Under the pieces are notes generated by a model, which had not been told where the DNA came from, made no database searches, and saw only the letters and a program-made list of their open reading frames with translations. A stretch of DNA of 10,027 bases from a virus. Taxonomy: Duplodnaviria; Heunggongvirae; Uroviricota; Caudoviricetes. The stretch is taken from the IMG/VR virus record IMGVR_UViG_2541047945_000003. One strand, 5' to 3'. Below, in pieces: positions 2,975 through 10,027 of this stretch. Both the position numbers and the translations under genes were made by a program. How positions within the stretch are numbered: the stretch's first letter is position 1; each line of letters starts with the position of its first letter.

Positions 2975-5900
2975 ATGGGTAAAGGCAGCAGTAAGGGGCA
3001 TACTCCGCGCGAAGCGAAGGACAACCTGAAGTCCACGCAGTTGCTGAGTGTGATCGATGCCATCAGCGAAGGGCCGGTTGAAGGTCCGGTGGATGGATTA
3101 AAAAGCGTGCTGCTGAACAGTACGCCAGTGCTGGACAGTGAGGGGAATACCAACATCTCCGGCGTCACGGTGGTGTTCCGGGCCGGTGAGCAGGAGCAGA
3201 CACCGCCGGAGGGATTTGAATCCTCCGGCTCCGAGACGGTGCTGGGTACGGAAGTGAAATACGACACGCCGATCACCCGGACCATCACGTCGGCAAACAT
3301 TGACCGACTGCGTTTTACCTTCGGCGTGCAGGCACTGGTGGAAACCACCTCAAAGGGGGACAGGAATCCGTCGGAAGTCCGCCTGCTGGTTCAGATACAG
3401 CGTAATGGTGGCTGGGTGACGGAAAAAGACATCACCATTAAGGGCAAAACCACCTCGCAGTATCTGGCCTCGGTGGTGGTGGGTAACCTGCCGCCGCGCC
3501 CGTTCAGTATCCGGATGCGCAGGATGACGCCGGACAGCACCACAGACCAGCTGCAGAACAAAACGCTCTGGTCGTCATACACCGAAATCATCGATGTGAA
3601 ACAGTGCTACCCGAACACGGCACTGGTCGGCGTGCAGGTGGACTCGGAGCAGTTCGGCAGCCAGCAGGTGAGCCGTAATTATCATCTGCGCGGGCGCATT
3701 CTGCAGGTGCCGTCGAACTATAACCCGCAGACGCGGCAATACAGCGGTATCTGGGACGGAACGTTTAAGCCAGCATACAGCAACAACATGGCCTGGTGTC
3801 TGTGGGATATGCTGACCCATCCGCGCTACGGCATGGGGAAACGTCTTGGTGCGGCGGATGTGGACAAATGGGCGCTGTATGTCATCGGCCAGCATTGCGA
3901 TCAGTCGGTGCCGGACGGTTTTGGCGGCACGGAGCCGCGCATCACCTGTAATGCGTACCTGACCACACAGCGCAAGACGTGGGATGTGCTCAGTGATTTC
4001 TGCTCGGCGATGCGCTGTATGCCGGTATGGAACGGGCAGACGCTGACGTTCGTGCAGGACCGACCGTCGGATAAGGTGTGGACCTATAACCGCAGTAATG
4101 TGGTGATGCCGGATGATGGTGCGCCGTTCCGCTACAGCTTCAGCGCCCTGAAGGACCGCCATAATGCCGTTGAGGTGAACTGGATTGACCCGAATAACGG
4201 CTGGGAGACGGCGACAGAGCTTGTGGAGGACACGCAGGCCATTGCCCGTTACGGTCGTAGCGTCACGAAGATGGATGCTTTTGGCTGTACCAGCCGGGGG
4301 CAGGCACATCGCGCCGGGCTGTGGCTGATTAAAACAGAACTGCTGGAAACGCAGACCGTGGACTTCAGCGTGGGTGCCGAAGGGCTTCGCCATGTACCGG
4401 GCGATGTCATTGAAATCTGCGATGATGACTATGCCGGTATCAGCACCGGCGGGCGCGTGCTGGCGGTAAACAGCCAGACCCGGACGCTGACGCTCGACCG
4501 TGAAATCACGCTGCCATCTTCCGGCACCACGCTGATAAGCCTGGTTGACGGGCAGGGGAGTCCGGTCAGCGTGGAGGTTCAGTCCGTCACCGACGGCGTG
4601 AAGGTAAAAGTGAGCCGTGTTCCTGACGGCGTTGCCGAGTACAGCGTGTGGGGGCTGAAGCTGCCGACGCTGCGCCAGCGCCTGTTCCGCTGTGTGAGTA
4701 TCCGTGAGAACGATGACGGTACGTATGCCATCACTGCCGTGCAGCATGTACCGGAGAAAGAAGCCATCGTGGATAACGGGGCGCACTTTGACGGTGACCA
4801 GAGCGGCACGGTGAATGGTGTCACGCCGCCAGCAGTGCAGCATCTGACCGCAGAAGTCACTGCAGACAGCGGGGAATACCAGGTGCTGGCGCGCTGGGAT
4901 ACGCCGAAGGTGGTGAAGGGGGTGAGCTTTATGCTTCGCCTGACCGTGGCAGCGGATGACGGCAGTGAGCGGCTGGTCAGCACGGCCCGGACGACGGAAA
5001 CCACATACCGCTTCACGCAACTGGCGCTGGGAAACTACAGGCTGACAGTCCGGGCGGCAAATGCCTGGGGGCAGCAGGGCGATCCGGCGTCGGTATCGTT
5101 CCGGATTGCCGCACCGGCAGCGCCATCTCGGATTGAGCTGACGCCGGGCTATTTTCAGATAACCGCCACGCCGCATCTTGCCGTTTATGATCCGACGGTA
5201 CAGTTTGAGTTCTGGTTCTCGGAAAAGCGGATTACCGATATCAGGCAGGTTGAAACCACAGCCCGCTATCTTGGCACGGCGCTGTACTGGATAGCTGCCA
5301 GTATCAATATTAAGCCGGGCCATGATTATTATTTTTACGTTCGCAGTGTGAACACCGTTGGCAAATCGGCATTCGTGGAGGCCGTCGGTCGGGCGAGCGA
5401 TGATGCGGAAGGTTACCTGGATTTTTTCAAAGGCCAGATAACCGAATCCCATCTCGGCAAGGAGCTGCTGGAAAAAGTCGAGCTGACGGAGGATAACGCC
5501 AGCAAACTGGAGGAGTTTTCGAAAGAGTGGAAGGACGCCAACGATAAATGGAATGCCATGTGGGGCGTCAAAATTGAGCAGACCAAAGACGGCAAACATT
5601 ATGTCGCGGGGCTTGGCCTCAGCATGGAGGATACGGAGGAAGGCAAACTGAGCCAGTTCCTGGTTGCCGCTAACCGTATCGCGTTTATTGACCCGGCAAA
5701 CGGGAATGAAACGCCGATGTTTGTGGCGCAGGGCAACCAGATATTCATGAACGAAGTGTTCCTGAAGTATCTGACGGCTCCCACCATTACCAGTGGCGGT
5801 AATCCTCCGGCATTTTCCCTGACACCGGACGGGCGGCTGACGGCGAGAAATGCTGATATCAGCGGTAACGTGAATGCGAACTCCGGGACGCTCAATAATG

Positions 5901-6388
5901 TCACGGTAAATGAAAACTGTACGATTAAGGGCATGCTGGAGGCGAACCAGGTCAGAGGTGACTTCGTTAAAACTGTATCCAAATCATTCCCGAAAAAGGC
6001 TGGTACGTGGGGTAACACGGAAACACCAAACGGGACGGTTACAGTCACCATTTACGATGATCATAACTTTGACCGCCAAATCATTATTCCGCCCATTATT
6101 TTTAACGGTGTGGCGTATGACGATCCGGGGAGCGGTAATAACCCGGGAGGTACGCGATACACGGGTTATGGTTTTGAAGTTCGCAAAAATGGCGTATTAA
6201 TCGCATCCAGAGAAACTAAAGGAGCCATTCCCGGTAGTTACAGTGCGGTTATTGATATGCCGAGTGGTGGTGGTAACGTCACTCTGGAGTTTAAGATTTT
6301 CCAGAAAGGCAATCAGGGCGCAGGTAACATCACAGACTGTACGGTGATTGTGACCAAAAAAGCTGCTTCCGGTATCAGTATCCGTTGA
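2975..6388 (+). CDS. J: Central tail fiber / host specificity protein J, with a divergent C-terminal receptor-binding region
   Basis: 1137-aa ORF preceded by AGGA 1 nt upstream of the ATG. The first ~975 residues ([34 protein letters not shown]...) match lambda gpJ closely from memory. The last ~160 residues (from about [14 protein letters not shown]... to ...[10 protein letters not shown]) do not match my recollection of the lambda J C-terminus. Confidence 0.93.
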
Positions 6389-6436: not shown

Positions 6437-6448
6437 TGTGGAGTGAGT

Positions 6449-8803
6449 ATGGCAGTACAGATTTCAGGTGTGCTGAAAGATGGTGCGGGAAAACCAATAC
6501 AGAACTGCACTATTCAACTGAAGGCAAAGCGTAACAGCACCACGGTACTGGTGAACACGGTGGCCTCTGAAAATCCGGATGAAGCCGGGCGTTACAGCAT
6601 GGATGTTGAGTATGGCCAGTACAACGTCACCCTGCTGGTTGAAGGTTTTCCGCCTTCACATGCCGGGACCATCACCGTGTATGAAGATTCTAAGCCGGGG
6701 ACGCTGAATGATTTTCTCGGTGCCATGACGGAAGAGGATGTCATGCCGGAGGCATTACGCCGTTTTGAGGCTATGGTGGAAGAAGCAGCACGTAACGCTG
6801 AAGCTGCCTCTCAGAGCGCAGCGGCGGCAAAGAAATCCGAAACTGCAGCGGCATCATCGAAGAACGCGGCGAAAACCTCAGAAACGAATGCAGCTAACAG
6901 CGCACAGGCGGCAGCGGCCTCGCAGACTGCATCGGCAAATTCCGCGACAGCAGCTAAAAAATCAGAAACCAACGCGAAAAACAGCGAGACAGCAGCAAAG
7001 ACGAGCGAAACCAACGCAAAGTCCAGCCAGACGGCAGCGAAAACCAGCGAAACGAATGCTAAAGCCAGTGAAACTGCGGCAAAAAACAGCCAGGCTGCAG
7101 CAGCTGAAAGCGAGAGCGCAGCAGCCGGTTCTGCGACTTCAGCAGCTGGATCAGCAACTGCTGCGGCTAACAGCCAGAAAGCTGCGAAGACGAGTGAAAC
7201 TAACGCAAAGTCCAGCCAGACGGCAGCGAAGACCAGCGAAACGAATGCCAAAGCCAGCGAAACTGCGGCAAAAAACAGTCAGGATGCAGCGGCCCAAAGC
7301 GAGAGTGCCGCAGCTGGTTCTGCAAGTGCGGCAGCTAATAGCCAAAAAGCTGCAAAAACCAGTGAAACTAACGCAAAGACGAGTGAAACAAAAGCAGCAG
7401 CCAGCGAGATAGAAGCAACGTCAGCCGCAACAAGAGCAGAGAATGCAGCCCGGATTGCAGAAGATGCCGCTGATCCTGCTTCAGTCCCTCCGCTTCCTGA
7501 TATCTGGCTACCCTTGAATGATTCTCTGGAAGCGATAACAGGGTATGCCCCGGGCTATAAAACAATAACCATCGGCAGTGATGAAATAACAATGCCTGTT
7601 AATGGCATATGCCAATTTAGCCGCGCTTCATCAGCAACGTATATTGATAAGTCCGGGCATATTACCGTGGCAGGGAATAACGTTCCTCGTTTTGAAAAAT
7701 ATGGTTTGCTGATAGAGAATCAGCGAACAAACATGTTCGTAAATAGTTTTAATCCTGATGCGTGGAATAAAAGCGGTGGTATATCTGTAACATCATCAAC
7801 AGATGAATTTGAGTTTAAATATGGACGTTTCACAGTAGGAAGTGAGATAGCAGGAACGACAACAGGGAGAAATATATGCACAGTTGCTGGTAATAAAGGC
7901 ATAGATGTGACTGGCGATGATCAGTACAGTAAAGGTCCGTATGTTACCGCGTCGTTCAGGGTAAGAAGTGATCTCAATGTTCGCGCACGTATCCGTTTTG
8001 AACGGTATAACTCGGAAGGATACACTTTCCTTTGTGACGCCTATTTGTCATTACAGACTCATGAACTACAAATTACGGGTGGTAATGCCCAGCTATTAAC
8101 AGCAAACTTTGAAATCGACCCTGGTAGTGGATGGATATATTTTCAGGCAACACTGAAATGTCTGCCAGAATGGGGAATGGTTGGTACGCAGCTGCAAATT
8201 GCAGCCGACAGAGCAGTGGGGGCTTTTGCAACAGGTGACTGGATAGAAGTAACCACCCCGCAATTCGAGTATGGTGCTTGTGCAACTTCCTTTATCATAA
8301 CGACAACAGAGCCAGCGACTCGTGCATCAGATTTATGTAAATTTCCGCTGATGAAAAATATGTATACCATGCCTTTTACGTTCATGGTGGAAGTCCATAA
8401 AAACTGGTTTATTTCTCATAATGCTGCACCGCGTGTCATTGATTCAGAAAATCACCAGTCCGGAGGCCCATTTATTATGGGGTTTGGTTCTTCTGGAACT
8501 ATCAGTCAGGATGGTTATTCGTATTGCGATATAGGCGGGGCTAACCGGCGTGTATATGAGTCATGCGGAGTAAGAGATCTCGTTATGGGATTCAGGGTTA
8601 AGGCTGACGGCATGACATGCTCATTTGCAAATAAGAATATAAGCACTGAAACCAAAACAGTATGGAAATATATTCGTGAAGCAGCCGTGATTCGTATCGG
8701 GGGGCAAACGACGACAGGATTACGACACCTTAATGGTCATATAAAAAACCTCCGTTTCTGGAACAGAGCATTGTCAGATACGCAGCTTAAGGAATACGTA
8801 TAA
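6449..8803 (+). CDS. stf: Side tail fiber protein (Stf-like): lambda-type N-terminal domain, repeat shaft, divergent C-terminal putative receptor-binding domain
   Basis: ATG 6449 with GGAG 5 nt upstream (the ORF track begins at an in-frame GTG at 6443). The N-terminus MAVQISGVLKDGAGKPIQNCTIQLKAKRNSTTVLVNTVASENPDEAGRYSMDVEYGQY... resembles the lambda Stf N-terminal domain from memory. The middle is an Ala/Lys/Ser/Glu/Thr-rich repeat region (KTSETNAK units). The C-terminal ~430 aa is lower-GC and ends ...IKNLRFWNRALSDTQLKEYV, which resembles the terminal strand of LamG/concanavalin-A-like jelly-roll domains. Confidence 0.85.
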   Translation: MAVQISGVLKDGAGKPIQNCTIQLKAKRNSTTVLVNTVASENPDEAGRYSMDVEYGQYNVTLLVEGFPPSHAGTITVYEDSKPGTLNDFLGAMTEEDVMPEALRRFEAMVEEAARNAEAASQSAAAAKKSETAAASSKNAAKTSETNAANSAQAAAASQTASANSATAAKKSETNAKNSETAAKTSETNAKSSQTAAKTSETNAKASETAAKNSQAAAAESESAAAGSATSAAGSATAAANSQKAAKTSETNAKSSQTAAKTSETNAKASETAAKNSQDAAAQSESAAAGSASAAANSQKAAKTSETNAKTSETKAAASEIEATSAATRAENAARIAEDAADPASVPPLPDIWLPLNDSLEAITGYAPGYKTITIGSDEITMPVNGICQFSRASSATYIDKSGHITVAGNNVPRFEKYGLLIENQRTNMFVNSFNPDAWNKSGGISVTSSTDEFEFKYGRFTVGSEIAGTTTGRNICTVAGNKGIDVTGDDQYSKGPYVTASFRVRSDLNVRARIRFERYNSEGYTFLCDAYLSLQTHELQITGGNAQLLTANFEIDPGSGWIYFQATLKCLPEWGMVGTQLQIAADRAVGAFATGDWIEVTTPQFEYGACATSFIITTTEPATRASDLCKFPLMKNMYTMPFTFMVEVHKNWFISHNAAPRVIDSENHQSGGPFIMGFGSSGTISQDGYSYCDIGGANRRVYESCGVRDLVMGFRVKADGMTCSFANKNISTETKTVWKYIREAAVIRIGGQTTTGLRHLNGHIKNLRFWNRALSDTQLKEYV
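6998..7354 (+). repeat. In-frame tandem duplication (~189-bp unit, two near-identical copies) inside the stf shaft, within a longer degenerate ~27-nt periodic region (~6820-7400)
   Basis: Copy A 6998-7186 and copy B 7187-7354 align almost base for base (aagacgag[c/t]gaaac[c/t]aacgcaaagtccagccagacggcagcgaa...ggttctgc). Copy B lacks about 21 nt near its 3' end. Protein level: KTSETNAKSSQTAAKTSETNAKASETAAKNSQ[A/D]AAA[E/Q]SESAAAGSA... occurs twice. Confidence 0.8.
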
Positions 8804-9072
8804 TGCGGGATATAACATTACGATTCGATAACAGAGAACAGTTTAACGCAATTGTATATGACAGTGGCCTGTTCAGTCTTGAAGAAGAAAATGGGGTTCT
8901 TGTTGATGTTATTGGCTGCATTATTGATTACGAGGAGCCAGAAAACGAAAGATGTACAGGCATTGATCGCGGTGGTTTTTTCGTAAACATGAGGATTGTT
9001 GATGGCAGTAAAAACATATCTTCTTTAATGCCTTTCATTACGACAGATCAGCATGTAAGGACATGGGCTTAA
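8803..9072 (+). CDS. Hypothetical protein (89 aa), start overlapping the stf stop; possible non-canonical fiber-associated factor or moron
   Basis: ATG 8803-8805 overlaps the stf TAA (TAATG), with AAGGA 9 nt upstream. AT-rich, acidic translation (MRDITLRFDNREQFNAIVYDSGLFSLEEENGVLVDVIGCIIDYEEPENER...). I recognise no family, and it does not resemble the canonical lambda Tfa as I recall it. Confidence 0.5.
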   Translation: MRDITLRFDNREQFNAIVYDSGLFSLEEENGVLVDVIGCIIDYEEPENERCTGIDRGGFFVNMRIVDGSKNISSLMPFITTDQHVRTWA

Positions 9073-9084
9073 TGGAGTAAGACA

Positions 9085-9810
9085 ATGGTTACAAAAACAG
9101 TAATTCCTGATGACATCAAAACGCTAAAATCCGATGTTAGTAAACTAAAAACTGATCAAGGAAGCTATGCAACAAAATCATATGTAGACAATAAAACAAC
9201 ATGGAATAGTTATTGCAATGTAATCTATGATCAAAAGGCATTGCCGACCACTGGAACTATATTTAGCGGTAAGATTCACTTGTCAAATAAGACTGGTGAA
9301 ACGGAAAACGCTTATAGTGATATATATACCAGAAAAAATATTGATGGTACTAAAGATACAATGACGAGGATCGTCACACATAACGGGACAAAAGGTATCT
9401 TTTGGGACTTTAGTGATCTTTACGGAGGAACTTTAATTTTCCCTGGCACTGCTGGTTATTTGAAAATGGGTAAATGCCTCATGTCCTATGGGGATCGTGT
9501 AGATAATGCCCTGATTAAATTTGATTATACAGACACACTACAGATCAAATATGCTAATCATGGTTCGACCATGACACTAAACACACAGGGAACCGCTCAC
9601 GCTGGCGTTACTGCTAAATTGTGGGGCAATTCTAGCCGTCCGGTTGTTTATGAAGTTGGTGTAGATGGTGGGGCTTTTATATTCTTCGGTCAAAAACAAA
9701 CAGATGACACATATGCATTTGCTGTTAATGGTGCATGTCAAGCGACCGCATTTAACCAGATAGACTGGCCCCCTGAATCACCAGACAACCAATATCACTT
9801 ATTTAAGTGA
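9085..9810 (+). CDS. Hypothetical protein (241 aa as read), 3' end fused to or truncated by IS2; native sequence ends at about codon 225
   Basis: ATG 9085 with GGAG 7 nt upstream. AT-rich ORF with an N-terminus ([31 protein letters not shown]) reminiscent of fibre-type proteins, then a Gly/Thr/Tyr-rich region. From nt 9761 the frame continues through the IS2 terminal repeat ([16 protein letters not shown]) to TGA 9808-9810, so the C-terminus is IS-derived. Confidence 0.55.
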
Positions 9811-9811
9811 T
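9794..9811. promoter_or_regulatory. Perfect palindrome in the IS2 terminal region upstream of insC (candidate OrfA operator / promoter element)
   Basis: ATCACTTA-TT-TAAGTGAT is a perfect 8-bp inverted repeat with a 2-bp spacer, about 40 nt upstream of the insC ATG. The IS2 orfA-proximal end is known to carry the orfA promoter and repressor binding; the exact site assignment is my inference. Confidence 0.35.
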
Positions 9812-9851
9812 AGTCTTAATACTAGTTTTTAGGCTAGTCATTGGAGAGCAG

Positions 9852-10027
9852 ATGATTGATGTCTTAGGACCGGAGAAACGCAGACGGCGTACCACACAGG
9901 AAAAGATCGCAATTGTTCAGCAGAGCTTTGAACCAGGGATGACGGTCTCCCTCGTTGCCCGGCAACATGGTGTAGCAGCCAGCCAGTTATTTCTCTGGCG
10001 TAAGCAATACCAGGAAGGAAGTCTTAC
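9852..10027 (+). CDS. insC: IS2 transposase OrfA (InsC), N-terminal 58 codons; 3' end outside the window
   Basis: Translation [58 protein letters not shown] matches IS2 InsC from memory, including a helix-turn-helix-like segment. No stop codon before the window ends. Confidence 0.9.

What the first reader, a model, noticed from the sequence alone, without database searches (positions are those of the whole stretch)
8803..9072. 89-aa acidic ORF with start overlapping the stf stop: candidate non-canonical fiber chaperone or small accessory protein
Its ATG overlaps the stf stop (TAATG), with a Shine-Dalgarno-like AAGGA inside the stf 3' end, so it is likely co-translated with stf. It sits where lambda has tfa, but is far shorter than canonical Tfa (~190 aa) and does not resemble it as I recall it. 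It may be a specialised chaperone for the new C-terminal domain or an unrelated moron.
Basis: inference. Interest (0 to 1): 0.5.

Follow-up and report, generated by a model that had tools for sequence, protein, structure and literature searches.

The report
Small partner gene of lectin-tipped fibre
The 89-codon gene is real and belongs to an uncharacterised family that always follows one particular mobile tail-fibre tip module in many unrelated phages. It is therefore most likely a dedicated helper (assembly chaperone or small subunit) for that tip, though its function has never been tested.

Summary
An 89-aa acidic ORF (8803-9072, pI 4.4) starts in the stf stop (TAATG), 9 nt after an AAGGA.

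It belongs to PHROG 1361, a family of unknown function. It has no Pfam, NCBIfam or PADLOC match and no resemblance to lambda Tfa.

The last 441 aa of Stf ("StfC") combine a GTA-head-spike-fibre-like domain with a LamG/galectin-like domain. This is a low-GC mobile module found in about 220 phage records: lambdoid, T5-like, T1-like, Dhillonvirus, Queuovirinae, rV5-like myoviruses and Aeromonas phages.

In all 58 loci I inspected, an orf89 homologue starts at or within about 40 nt of the fibre's stop. These include 11 genomic loci retrieved through StfC alone.

The downstream second fibre is optional (present in 14 of 22 diverse loci). In this window IS2 has truncated it.

At one rV5-type locus, the allele ending in an intramolecular chaperone has no small ORF. 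The allele ending in StfC has one.

The AlphaFold model (pLDDT 82) is a small alpha/beta sandwich unlike any known fibre chaperone.

Best reading (about 0.5): a trans-acting assembly factor for the StfC tip. Main rival (about 0.28): a virion adaptor that docks the distal fibre's conserved N-terminal peptide. The function is untested.

The parts
6443..8803 (+). stf, the side (proximal) tail fibre, 786 aa. It has a phage_tail_N N-terminus, an Ala-rich repeat shaft and the StfC tip.
   Evidence: PF08400 E 6e-68 and phrog_1419 over the full length. Annotated as side tail fibre in phage PhiR11_1.
7478..8800 (+). StfC, the 441-aa mobile tip module. It has a conserved N-part, a GTA-head-spike-fibre-like domain (Stf aa 423-628) and a LamG/galectin-like jelly-roll (about aa 630-786). 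It is the element that orf89 tracks.
   Evidence: NF048003 E 1.7e-12. Laminin_G_3 hit. PDB 6tb9 Rcc01080 E 0.0014. 218 phage records. GC drops to 42-44% here.
8789..8793 (+). Shine-Dalgarno-like AAGGA inside the stf 3' end, 9 nt before the orf89 ATG.
   Evidence: Read directly from the sequence. Purine-rich stretches occupy the same position in homologous loci.
8803..9072 (+). orf89, a small acidic alpha/beta protein of family phrog_1361 and the obligate partner of StfC.
9085..9760 (+). Distal or branch fibre ('fiber B', phrog_4563). Only the first ~225 aa are present, including the N-terminal docking-type peptide [17 protein letters not shown]. Its C-terminal Peptidase_S74 intramolecular chaperone is cut off.
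   Evidence: phrog_4563 E 2e-116, covering 1-226 of 346. Intact 346-aa homologues carry PF13884 at aa 227-278. Homology to them ends at about 9760.
9761..10027 (+). Left end of an IS2 (IS3-family) element that interrupts fiber B. Its first ORF starts at 9853.
   Evidence: Annotated as IS3 family transposase in the identical E. coli record H1. Sequence. The identification as IS2 rests on my own knowledge of the InsC N-terminus.

Best explanation
orf89 is a real, translationally coupled gene of an uncharacterised phage family (PHROG 1361, with the sister family 18574). It is the obligate partner of the StfC fibre-tip module, which combines a GTA-head-spike-fibre-like domain with a LamG/galectin-like domain. 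The two genes move together as one low-GC cassette between unrelated phages.

The most likely mechanism is as follows. orf89 is made in step with Stf through the TAATG overlap. It binds the nascent C-terminal lectin-like region and acts in trans as a dedicated folding or assembly factor. This is the job done by lambda/Mu Tfa, by T4 gp38, or by the C-terminal intramolecular chaperone in other fibres. It may stay bound as a small cap.

What is shown: the gene is real, it is conserved, it is strictly linked to StfC, it is independent of the second fibre, and it is unrelated to known chaperones. What is inferred: physical binding to StfC and chaperone activity.
For: Strict linkage. All 36 loci with a tblastn match to orf89 have StfC directly upstream. 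In the phage loci examined individually, a family member starts at or just after the stop of the StfC-type fibre: AKFV33, SA126VB, IrisVonRoten, phage 21, tunus, nomine, VogelGryff, fp01, Aeromonas 14AhydR10PP and an IMG/VR contig. In fp01 the gap is about 45 nt and the fibre is annotated as two overlapping CDS.

Blind test. All 11 genomic loci retrieved through StfC peptide patterns alone carry the small ORF at or within about 40 nt of the fibre's end. They come from Escherichia ruysiae, an Escherichia sp., Silvania, Buttiauxella, Aeromonas (2), Leclercia (3) and one MAG contig.

Matching distribution. StfC occurs in 218 phage records and the IrisVonRoten small ORF in 203, with an almost identical organism breakdown.

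Linkage block. Among E. coli prophages, StfC (98-100%) and orf89 (98-100%) stay constant. The Stf N-terminus varies and the downstream fibre varies from 47 to 100% or is deleted. Pairwise divergence of the small ORF correlates with that of StfC (r = 0.64, descriptive only).

Independence from the second fibre. That fibre is absent after the small ORF in phage 21, the rV5-like phages, IMG/VR contig L036, the Aeromonas loci, Buttiauxella, and loci L032/L034.

Natural swap. At the same locus, rV5 gp41 ends in a Peptidase_S74 intramolecular chaperone and has no small ORF. Phage nomine ends in StfC and has a 110-aa family member.

Fiber B carries its own intramolecular chaperone, so orf89 is not needed for it.

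Start/stop overlap or close abutment is conserved in most loci.
Confidence: 0.5

Rival explanations
1. orf89 is a structural adaptor or socket. It stays in the virion at the StfC end of the proximal fibre and forms, or completes, the docking site for the conserved N-terminal peptide (TxTxIPxDIxxLK) of interchangeable distal fibres. Its role would resemble that of the T4 gp35/gp36 hinge proteins.
For: The gene sits between the proximal and distal fibre genes in 14 of 22 diverse loci, with a conserved 3-12 nt gap. The distal fibre's first ~20 residues are nearly invariant across lambdoid, T5-like, Seuratvirus and Drexlerviridae loci, while the rest of that fibre is unrelated. A different N-terminal type (MAxRxDxIxL) follows phrog_18574-type small ORFs. 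DT57C LtfB has the phiEco32 gp15-type N-terminus and docks on a gp14-like region. StfC-type fibres have no detectable gp14-like docking region. BASEL 2025 models IrisVonRoten Gp24 attached to Gp22 and does not account for Gp23.
Against: The small ORF is conserved where no distal fibre follows: phage 21, dozens of rV5-like phages, Aeromonas phages and prophages, and L036. The first 95 aa of StfC are far better conserved (56-64%) than the small ORF (25-50%). That makes StfC a better partner for an almost invariant peptide.
Confidence: 0.28
2. orf89 is a stoichiometric tip subunit or cap. It stays bound to the LamG/GTA-spike-like domain and modulates glycan binding, either as a transient chaperone cap or as a co-receptor-binding piece.
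For: It is strictly linked to a lectin-like tip. A precedent exists: small downstream chaperones proposed to act as transient caps in Alteromonas phages (PMC10579305). The invariant C-terminal RxW(A) motif suggests an anchoring peptide.
Against: The sequence is 98-100% conserved among E. coli prophages and is not hypervariable, so it is unlikely to determine specificity. No structural similarity to intramolecular-chaperone-like caps was found.
Confidence: 0.12
3. orf89 is an unrelated moron or regulatory gene that merely hitch-hikes at the end of the fibre operon, for example one involved in exclusion, defence or lysogenic conversion.
For: Morons are common at this position in lambdoid prophages. 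A conserved 2-TM protein (orf95, phrog_1443) and defence-like genes lie nearby in relatives.
Against: The gene is present in strictly lytic phages (T5-like, T1-like, rV5-like), always in the same translationally coupled position after the same fibre domain. There is no PADLOC hit. It has no signal peptide or TM segment (GRAVY -0.22).
Confidence: 0.05

Closest known systems
Lambda Tfa / Mu-P2 tail fibre assembly proteins (Pfam Caudo_TAP, PF02413)
   Same: The gene lies immediately downstream of the side-tail-fibre gene and is co-expressed with it. It is presumed to be specific for the fibre's C-terminal domain. Fibre tip and partner gene travel together as one module.
   Different: orf89 is 89 aa against about 175-195 aa. 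Neither orf89 nor any of 78 relatives gives a Pfam match. The predicted fold is a small alpha/beta sandwich with no Tfa-like hit. The tip it accompanies is lectin-like (GTA-spike plus LamG), not a gp37/Stf-type tip.
C-terminal intramolecular chaperone domains (Peptidase_S74; K1F endosialidase, T5 pb1)
   Same: The presumed role is assembly of a fibre's distal end. At the rV5-type locus, an allele ending in an intramolecular chaperone and an allele ending in StfC plus the small ORF replace each other.
   Different: orf89 is a separate polypeptide, has no S74 motif and has no structural similarity. The neighbouring fiber B has its own S74 domain.
Branched lateral fibres of T5-like phages (DT57C LtfA/LtfB; phiEco32 gp14/gp15; IrisVonRoten Gp22/Gp24)
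   Same: The overall locus logic is the same: a proximal fibre followed by a distal fibre whose N-terminus docks on the proximal one (PMC4728585, PMC11990801). IrisVonRoten Gp22-Gp23-Gp24 is a direct homologue of Stf-orf89-fiber B.
   Different: DT57C and phiEco32 have neither StfC nor a small ORF. The small ORF (Gp23) has not been assigned a role in the literature I could read.
RcGTA head spike fibre Rcc01080 (PDB 6tb9; NCBIfam NF048003)
   Same: The central part of StfC, the partner of orf89, is homologous to it.
   Different: This concerns the fibre domain, not orf89 itself. Whether GTA loci encode an orf89-like partner was not tested.
Small trans chaperone 'caps' of Alteromonas phage fibres (V22/A5; PMC10579305)
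   Same: A small protein is encoded right after the fibre gene, and the pair transfers horizontally between unrelated phage families.
   Different: Those chaperones resemble intramolecular chaperone domains. orf89 does not. There is no sequence relationship.

Membership tests
PHROG 1361 (uncharacterised phage protein family; sister family PHROG 18574) | Full-length match to the family HMM | tested here: met
   E 1.9e-30, covering residues 1-89 against 1-92 of 92. Relatives from IrisVonRoten and nomine also match 1361. Relatives from fp01, Aeromonas and Leclercia match 18574 and/or 1361.
PHROG 1361 (uncharacterised phage protein family; sister family PHROG 18574) | Genomic position: starts at or near the stop of a fibre gene ending in the StfC module | tested here: met
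   58 of 58 loci inspected.
Tail fibre assembly proteins, Caudo_TAP (lambda Tfa, Mu gpU, P2 gpG) | Sequence match to PF02413 | tested here: not met
   No hit at E <= 1 for orf89 or for any of 79 family members.
Tail fibre assembly proteins, Caudo_TAP (lambda Tfa, Mu gpU, P2 gpG) | Size of about 175-195 aa with two domains | tested here: not met
   89 aa, single compact domain.
Tail fibre assembly proteins, Caudo_TAP (lambda Tfa, Mu gpU, P2 gpG) | Encoded directly downstream of the fibre gene and specific for its tip | tested here: met
   TAATG overlap. Strict co-occurrence with StfC.
Tail fibre assembly proteins, Caudo_TAP (lambda Tfa, Mu gpU, P2 gpG) | Required for folding or trimerisation of the fibre tip | not testable with these tools
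   Needs co-expression or deletion experiments, or multimer prediction.
Intramolecular chaperone (Peptidase_S74) | PF13884 match and the autocleavage motif | tested here: not met
   No hit for orf89. The domain is present instead in fiber B homologues.
Anti-phage defence proteins (PADLOC) | HMM match | tested here: not met
   0 families.
Virion structural adaptor or hinge (T4 gp35/gp36-like role) | Presence in purified virions at the fibre joint | not testable with these tools
   The available proteomics papers do not cover it.

The most novel reading that the evidence does not exclude
orf89-family proteins are not chaperones. They are the conserved 'socket' of a plug-and-socket system shared by siphoviruses and myoviruses. 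Bound to the StfC end of a proximal fibre, they capture the ~20-residue N-terminal plug (TxTxIPxDIxxLK or MAxRxDxIxL) of freely exchangeable distal receptor-binding fibres. That would explain why the distal fibre cassette recombines exactly at the orf89 boundary.
Probability: 0.25. Interest if true: 0.65.

Novelty: new variant of a known kind. Interest (0 to 1): 0.42.

Why it matters
Fibre-plus-partner modules decide phage host range and are the parts exchanged in phage and phage-capsid engineering. The StfC module is among the more widespread lateral-fibre ends of coliphages: about 220 phage records, and small-ORF clusters seen on hundreds of E. coli contigs. Its obligatory 90-aa partner is annotated only as 'hypothetical' in nearly all records; a few call it 'tail fiber protein'. 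The published fibre models I could read do not assign it a role. Knowing that the two must be moved together, and whether the small protein folds the tip or docks the distal fibre, would directly affect fibre-swap designs. It would also add a structurally new family to the short list of fibre assembly factors. It is not a conceptual surprise: a small helper gene after a fibre gene is a familiar arrangement.

Tried and rejected
1. Homology to Tfa, gp38 or gp57A. No Pfam, NCBIfam or PDB-sequence hit. Rejected.

2. Defence or moron annotation. PADLOC is empty. Rejected.

3. phmmer against 1.84 billion representatives gave only 6 hits. P0017 looks like a frameshifted read-through of this same locus. 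P0019 (cadherin-like repeats) and P0020 (a long repetitive protein) were judged spurious.

4. The first genome-contig scan used patterns biased towards T5-like sequences and found nothing. The second scan, made through StfC, worked.

5. The first AlphaFold model, built from 12 sequences, was poor (pLDDT 65). A 79-sequence alignment gave pLDDT 82. Fold searches were unspecific both times.

6. Are orf89 and the second small ORF after fiber B (orf95) paralogues? No. orf95 is a hydrophobic protein of phrog_1443 that phage 21's annotation calls a membrane protein.

7. Virion proteomics in the literature. The AKFV33 study analysed 4 gel bands only. rV5 itself carries the allele ending in an intramolecular chaperone, without the small ORF. 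The OSYSP and 9g papers gave nothing usable.

8. Does the Stf shaft carry the phiEco32 gp14-like docking region used in DT57C? No detectable similarity.

9. Synonymous versus non-synonymous changes among E. coli alleles. Too few differences to be informative.

10. Co-folding of orf89 with StfC.
Full report
**Context.** The window is the tail end of a lambdoid E. coli prophage. It contains H' (7-573), M, L, K, I, J (2975-6388), stf (6443-8803), orf89 (8803-9072), a further fibre ORF (9085-9810) and an IS element. Identical DNA occurs in E. coli chromosomes and in the induced ECOR phage PhiR11_1.

**Observation.** The ORF exists as described. The stf stop is TAA at 8801-8803 and the ATG is at 8803-8805, giving TAATG. 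AAGGA lies at 8789-8793, 9 nt upstream. The product is 89 aa with pI 4.38. No terminator-like site separates stf, orf89 and the next ORF, whereas a strong one follows J.

**Family.** orf89 matches PHROG 1361 ('unknown function') end to end (E 1.9e-30). It has no Pfam, NCBIfam or PADLOC match. None of 79 family members hits Caudo_TAP or any chaperone family. A profile search found 253 clusters at 90% identity; all names shown among the 120 listed are 'hypothetical protein' or 'prophage protein', and some clusters occur on hundreds of E. coli contigs.

**What it travels with.**
- The last 441 aa of Stf (StfC, 7478-8800) carry a GTA head-spike-fibre domain (NF048003, E 1.7e-12) followed by a Laminin_G_3-like end. 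There is a weak sequence match to the solved RcGTA head spike fibre.
- BASEL 2025 describes the homologous end of IrisVonRoten Gp22 as a protruding galectin-like domain (PMC11990801).
- GC falls from about 58-60% in the tail genes to 42-44% in StfC and about 37% in orf89 and the next gene, so the block was imported.
- StfC occurs in 218 phage records. These span lambdoid phages (phage 21, ECOR prophages), Tequintavirus and Epseptimavirus, Drexlerviridae, Dhillonvirus, Queuovirinae, rV5-like Vequintavirus and Aeromonas phages.

**Co-occurrence.**
- In the 36 loci with a tblastn match to orf89, StfC is always directly upstream.
- In the phage loci fetched through StfC or otherwise, a homologous 88-110 aa ORF starts at or just after the fibre's stop. 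These are AKFV33, SA126VB, IrisVonRoten, phage 21, tunus, nomine, fp01, Aeromonas 14AhydR10PP, VogelGryff and an IMG/VR contig. In fp01 the gap is about 45 nt.
- A blind set of 11 genomic loci was retrieved with StfC peptide patterns only. It covers Escherichia ruysiae, an Escherichia sp., Silvania, Buttiauxella, Aeromonas, Leclercia and one MAG contig. All 11 have a family member at or within about 40 nt of the fibre's end, including loci where the fibre is degraded.
- Counts in the phage collection agree: 218 records with StfC against 203 with the small ORF, with the same organism breakdown.
- Among E. coli prophages, StfC and orf89 form a constant block, while the Stf N-terminus and the downstream gene vary or are deleted.

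**The downstream gene.**
- In intact relatives the next gene is a 346-aa fibre with a C-terminal Peptidase_S74 intramolecular chaperone, followed by a 95-aa hydrophobic protein, orf95 (phrog_1443), that phage 21's annotation calls a membrane protein.
- In the window, homology to this 'fiber B' stops at about nt 9760 (aa 225), where an IS2-type element begins. Its chaperone domain is therefore lost.
- Fiber B is a variable cassette and is optional. It follows the small ORF in 14 of 22 diverse loci. It is missing in phage 21, the rV5-like phages, L036, the Aeromonas loci and Buttiauxella.
- Where present, its first ~20 residues are almost invariant (TxTxIPxDIxxLK), or of a second type (MAxRxDxIxL) after PHROG 18574-type small ORFs.
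- DT57C LtfB has the phiEco32 gp15-type N-terminus (PMC4728585) and docks on a gp14-like region of LtfA. Neither DT57C nor phiEco32 has StfC or a small ORF.
- Stf and AKFV33 orf137 show no gp14-like region.
- The distal fibre in these loci therefore docks on something specific to the StfC/small-ORF module.

**A natural swap.** At the same position of the Vequintavirus fibre cluster, rV5 gp41 ends in a Peptidase_S74 chaperone and has no small ORF (PMC3606486, Table S3). Phage nomine and many relatives end in StfC and have a 110-aa family member.

**Interpretation.**
- Solid points: orf89 is a genuine gene. It is not a moron. It is the obligate, co-transferred and translationally coupled partner of the StfC tip.
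- The mechanism is inferred. I favour a trans-acting assembly factor for StfC, at about 0.5. Three observations support this: the partner is needed wherever StfC is present, irrespective of a distal fibre; it substitutes positionally for an intramolecular chaperone; and fiber B has its own chaperone.
- The main rival, at about 0.28, is a virion adaptor that helps dock the distal fibre's N-terminal plug. It is supported by the sandwich position of the gene and by the plug types tracking the module subtype. It is weakened by conservation of the small ORF in loci without any distal fibre, and by the StfC N-part being much better conserved than the small ORF.
- A persistent cap role is also possible.

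**Literature.** The papers I could read do not assign the small ORF a function. A few GenBank records call it 'tail fiber protein'; most call it hypothetical.

**Novelty and score.** The kind (a helper gene behind a fibre gene) is familiar. The family is structurally unrelated to the known helpers and is uncharacterised despite being common. I rate it a new variant of a known kind, of moderate interest.

Noticed in passing
window 9085-10027: The second fibre gene (phrog_4563) is interrupted by an IS2-type element at about nt 9761, right at the junction with its Peptidase_S74 intramolecular chaperone domain (aa 227 onward in intact copies). The distal fibre of this prophage is probably non-functional.
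   Followed up: partly
window ~7500-9800: GC content steps down from about 58-60% (tail genes) to 42-44% (StfC) and about 37% (orf89, fiber B). The fibre end is a horizontally acquired cassette joined to a lambdoid Stf N-terminus and shaft.
   Followed up: partly
window 9085-9135; L003, L004, L037, L039, L044-L046, L048; L043, L049, L053-L055: The extreme N-terminus (~20 aa) of the distal fibre comes in discrete types. TxTxIPxDIxxLK follows phrog_1361-type small ORFs. MAxRxDxIxL follows phrog_18574-type ones. DT57C and phiEco32 have a third type and lack StfC and the small ORF. This looks like exchangeable docking plugs matched to the type of proximal fibre.
   Followed up: partly
L001 7769-8056; L038 4590-4883 (not in the window, which ends in the IS): A 95-97 aa hydrophobic protein (phrog_1443, unknown function; annotated as a 2-TM membrane protein in phage 21) is conserved downstream of the fibre cassette in E. 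coli prophages. In phage 21 it directly follows the small ORF. It may be a lysogenic-conversion or exclusion gene.
   Followed up: partly
L002 8081-8879: A remnant of the tfa C-terminus and a serine recombinase (invertase-like) lie downstream of the cassette. This suggests that the StfC-orf89-fiber B-orf95 block replaced an ancestral invertible stf/tfa end.
   Followed up: no
L040 (phage nomine) versus rV5 genes 40-42: Allelic replacement at one Vequintavirus fibre locus. rV5 gp41 has a receptor-binding end plus an intramolecular chaperone and no small ORF. Nomine has a StfC end plus a 110-aa small ORF.
   Followed up: yes
phage collection hits H55, H78, H125, H126, H49, H142: Records named 'Campylobacter phage' and 'Listeria phage' carry rV5-like or T5-like coliphage fibre sequences. 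They are probably mislabelled or contaminated entries.
   Followed up: no
window 6800-7400: The Stf shaft is a long Ala/Ser/Thr/Glu/Lys-rich repeat (SETNAK(T/S)SETAAK...). It produces long spurious ORFs in other frames and on the opposite strand, and a strong AT skew (0.39-0.59).
   Followed up: no
L001 2984-6404: In strain FDAARGOS_1249 the same stf is split by an IS5-family insertion. In phages 3W and 4A7 the StfC region is interrupted by mobile elements. This fibre locus is a frequent IS target.
   Followed up: no
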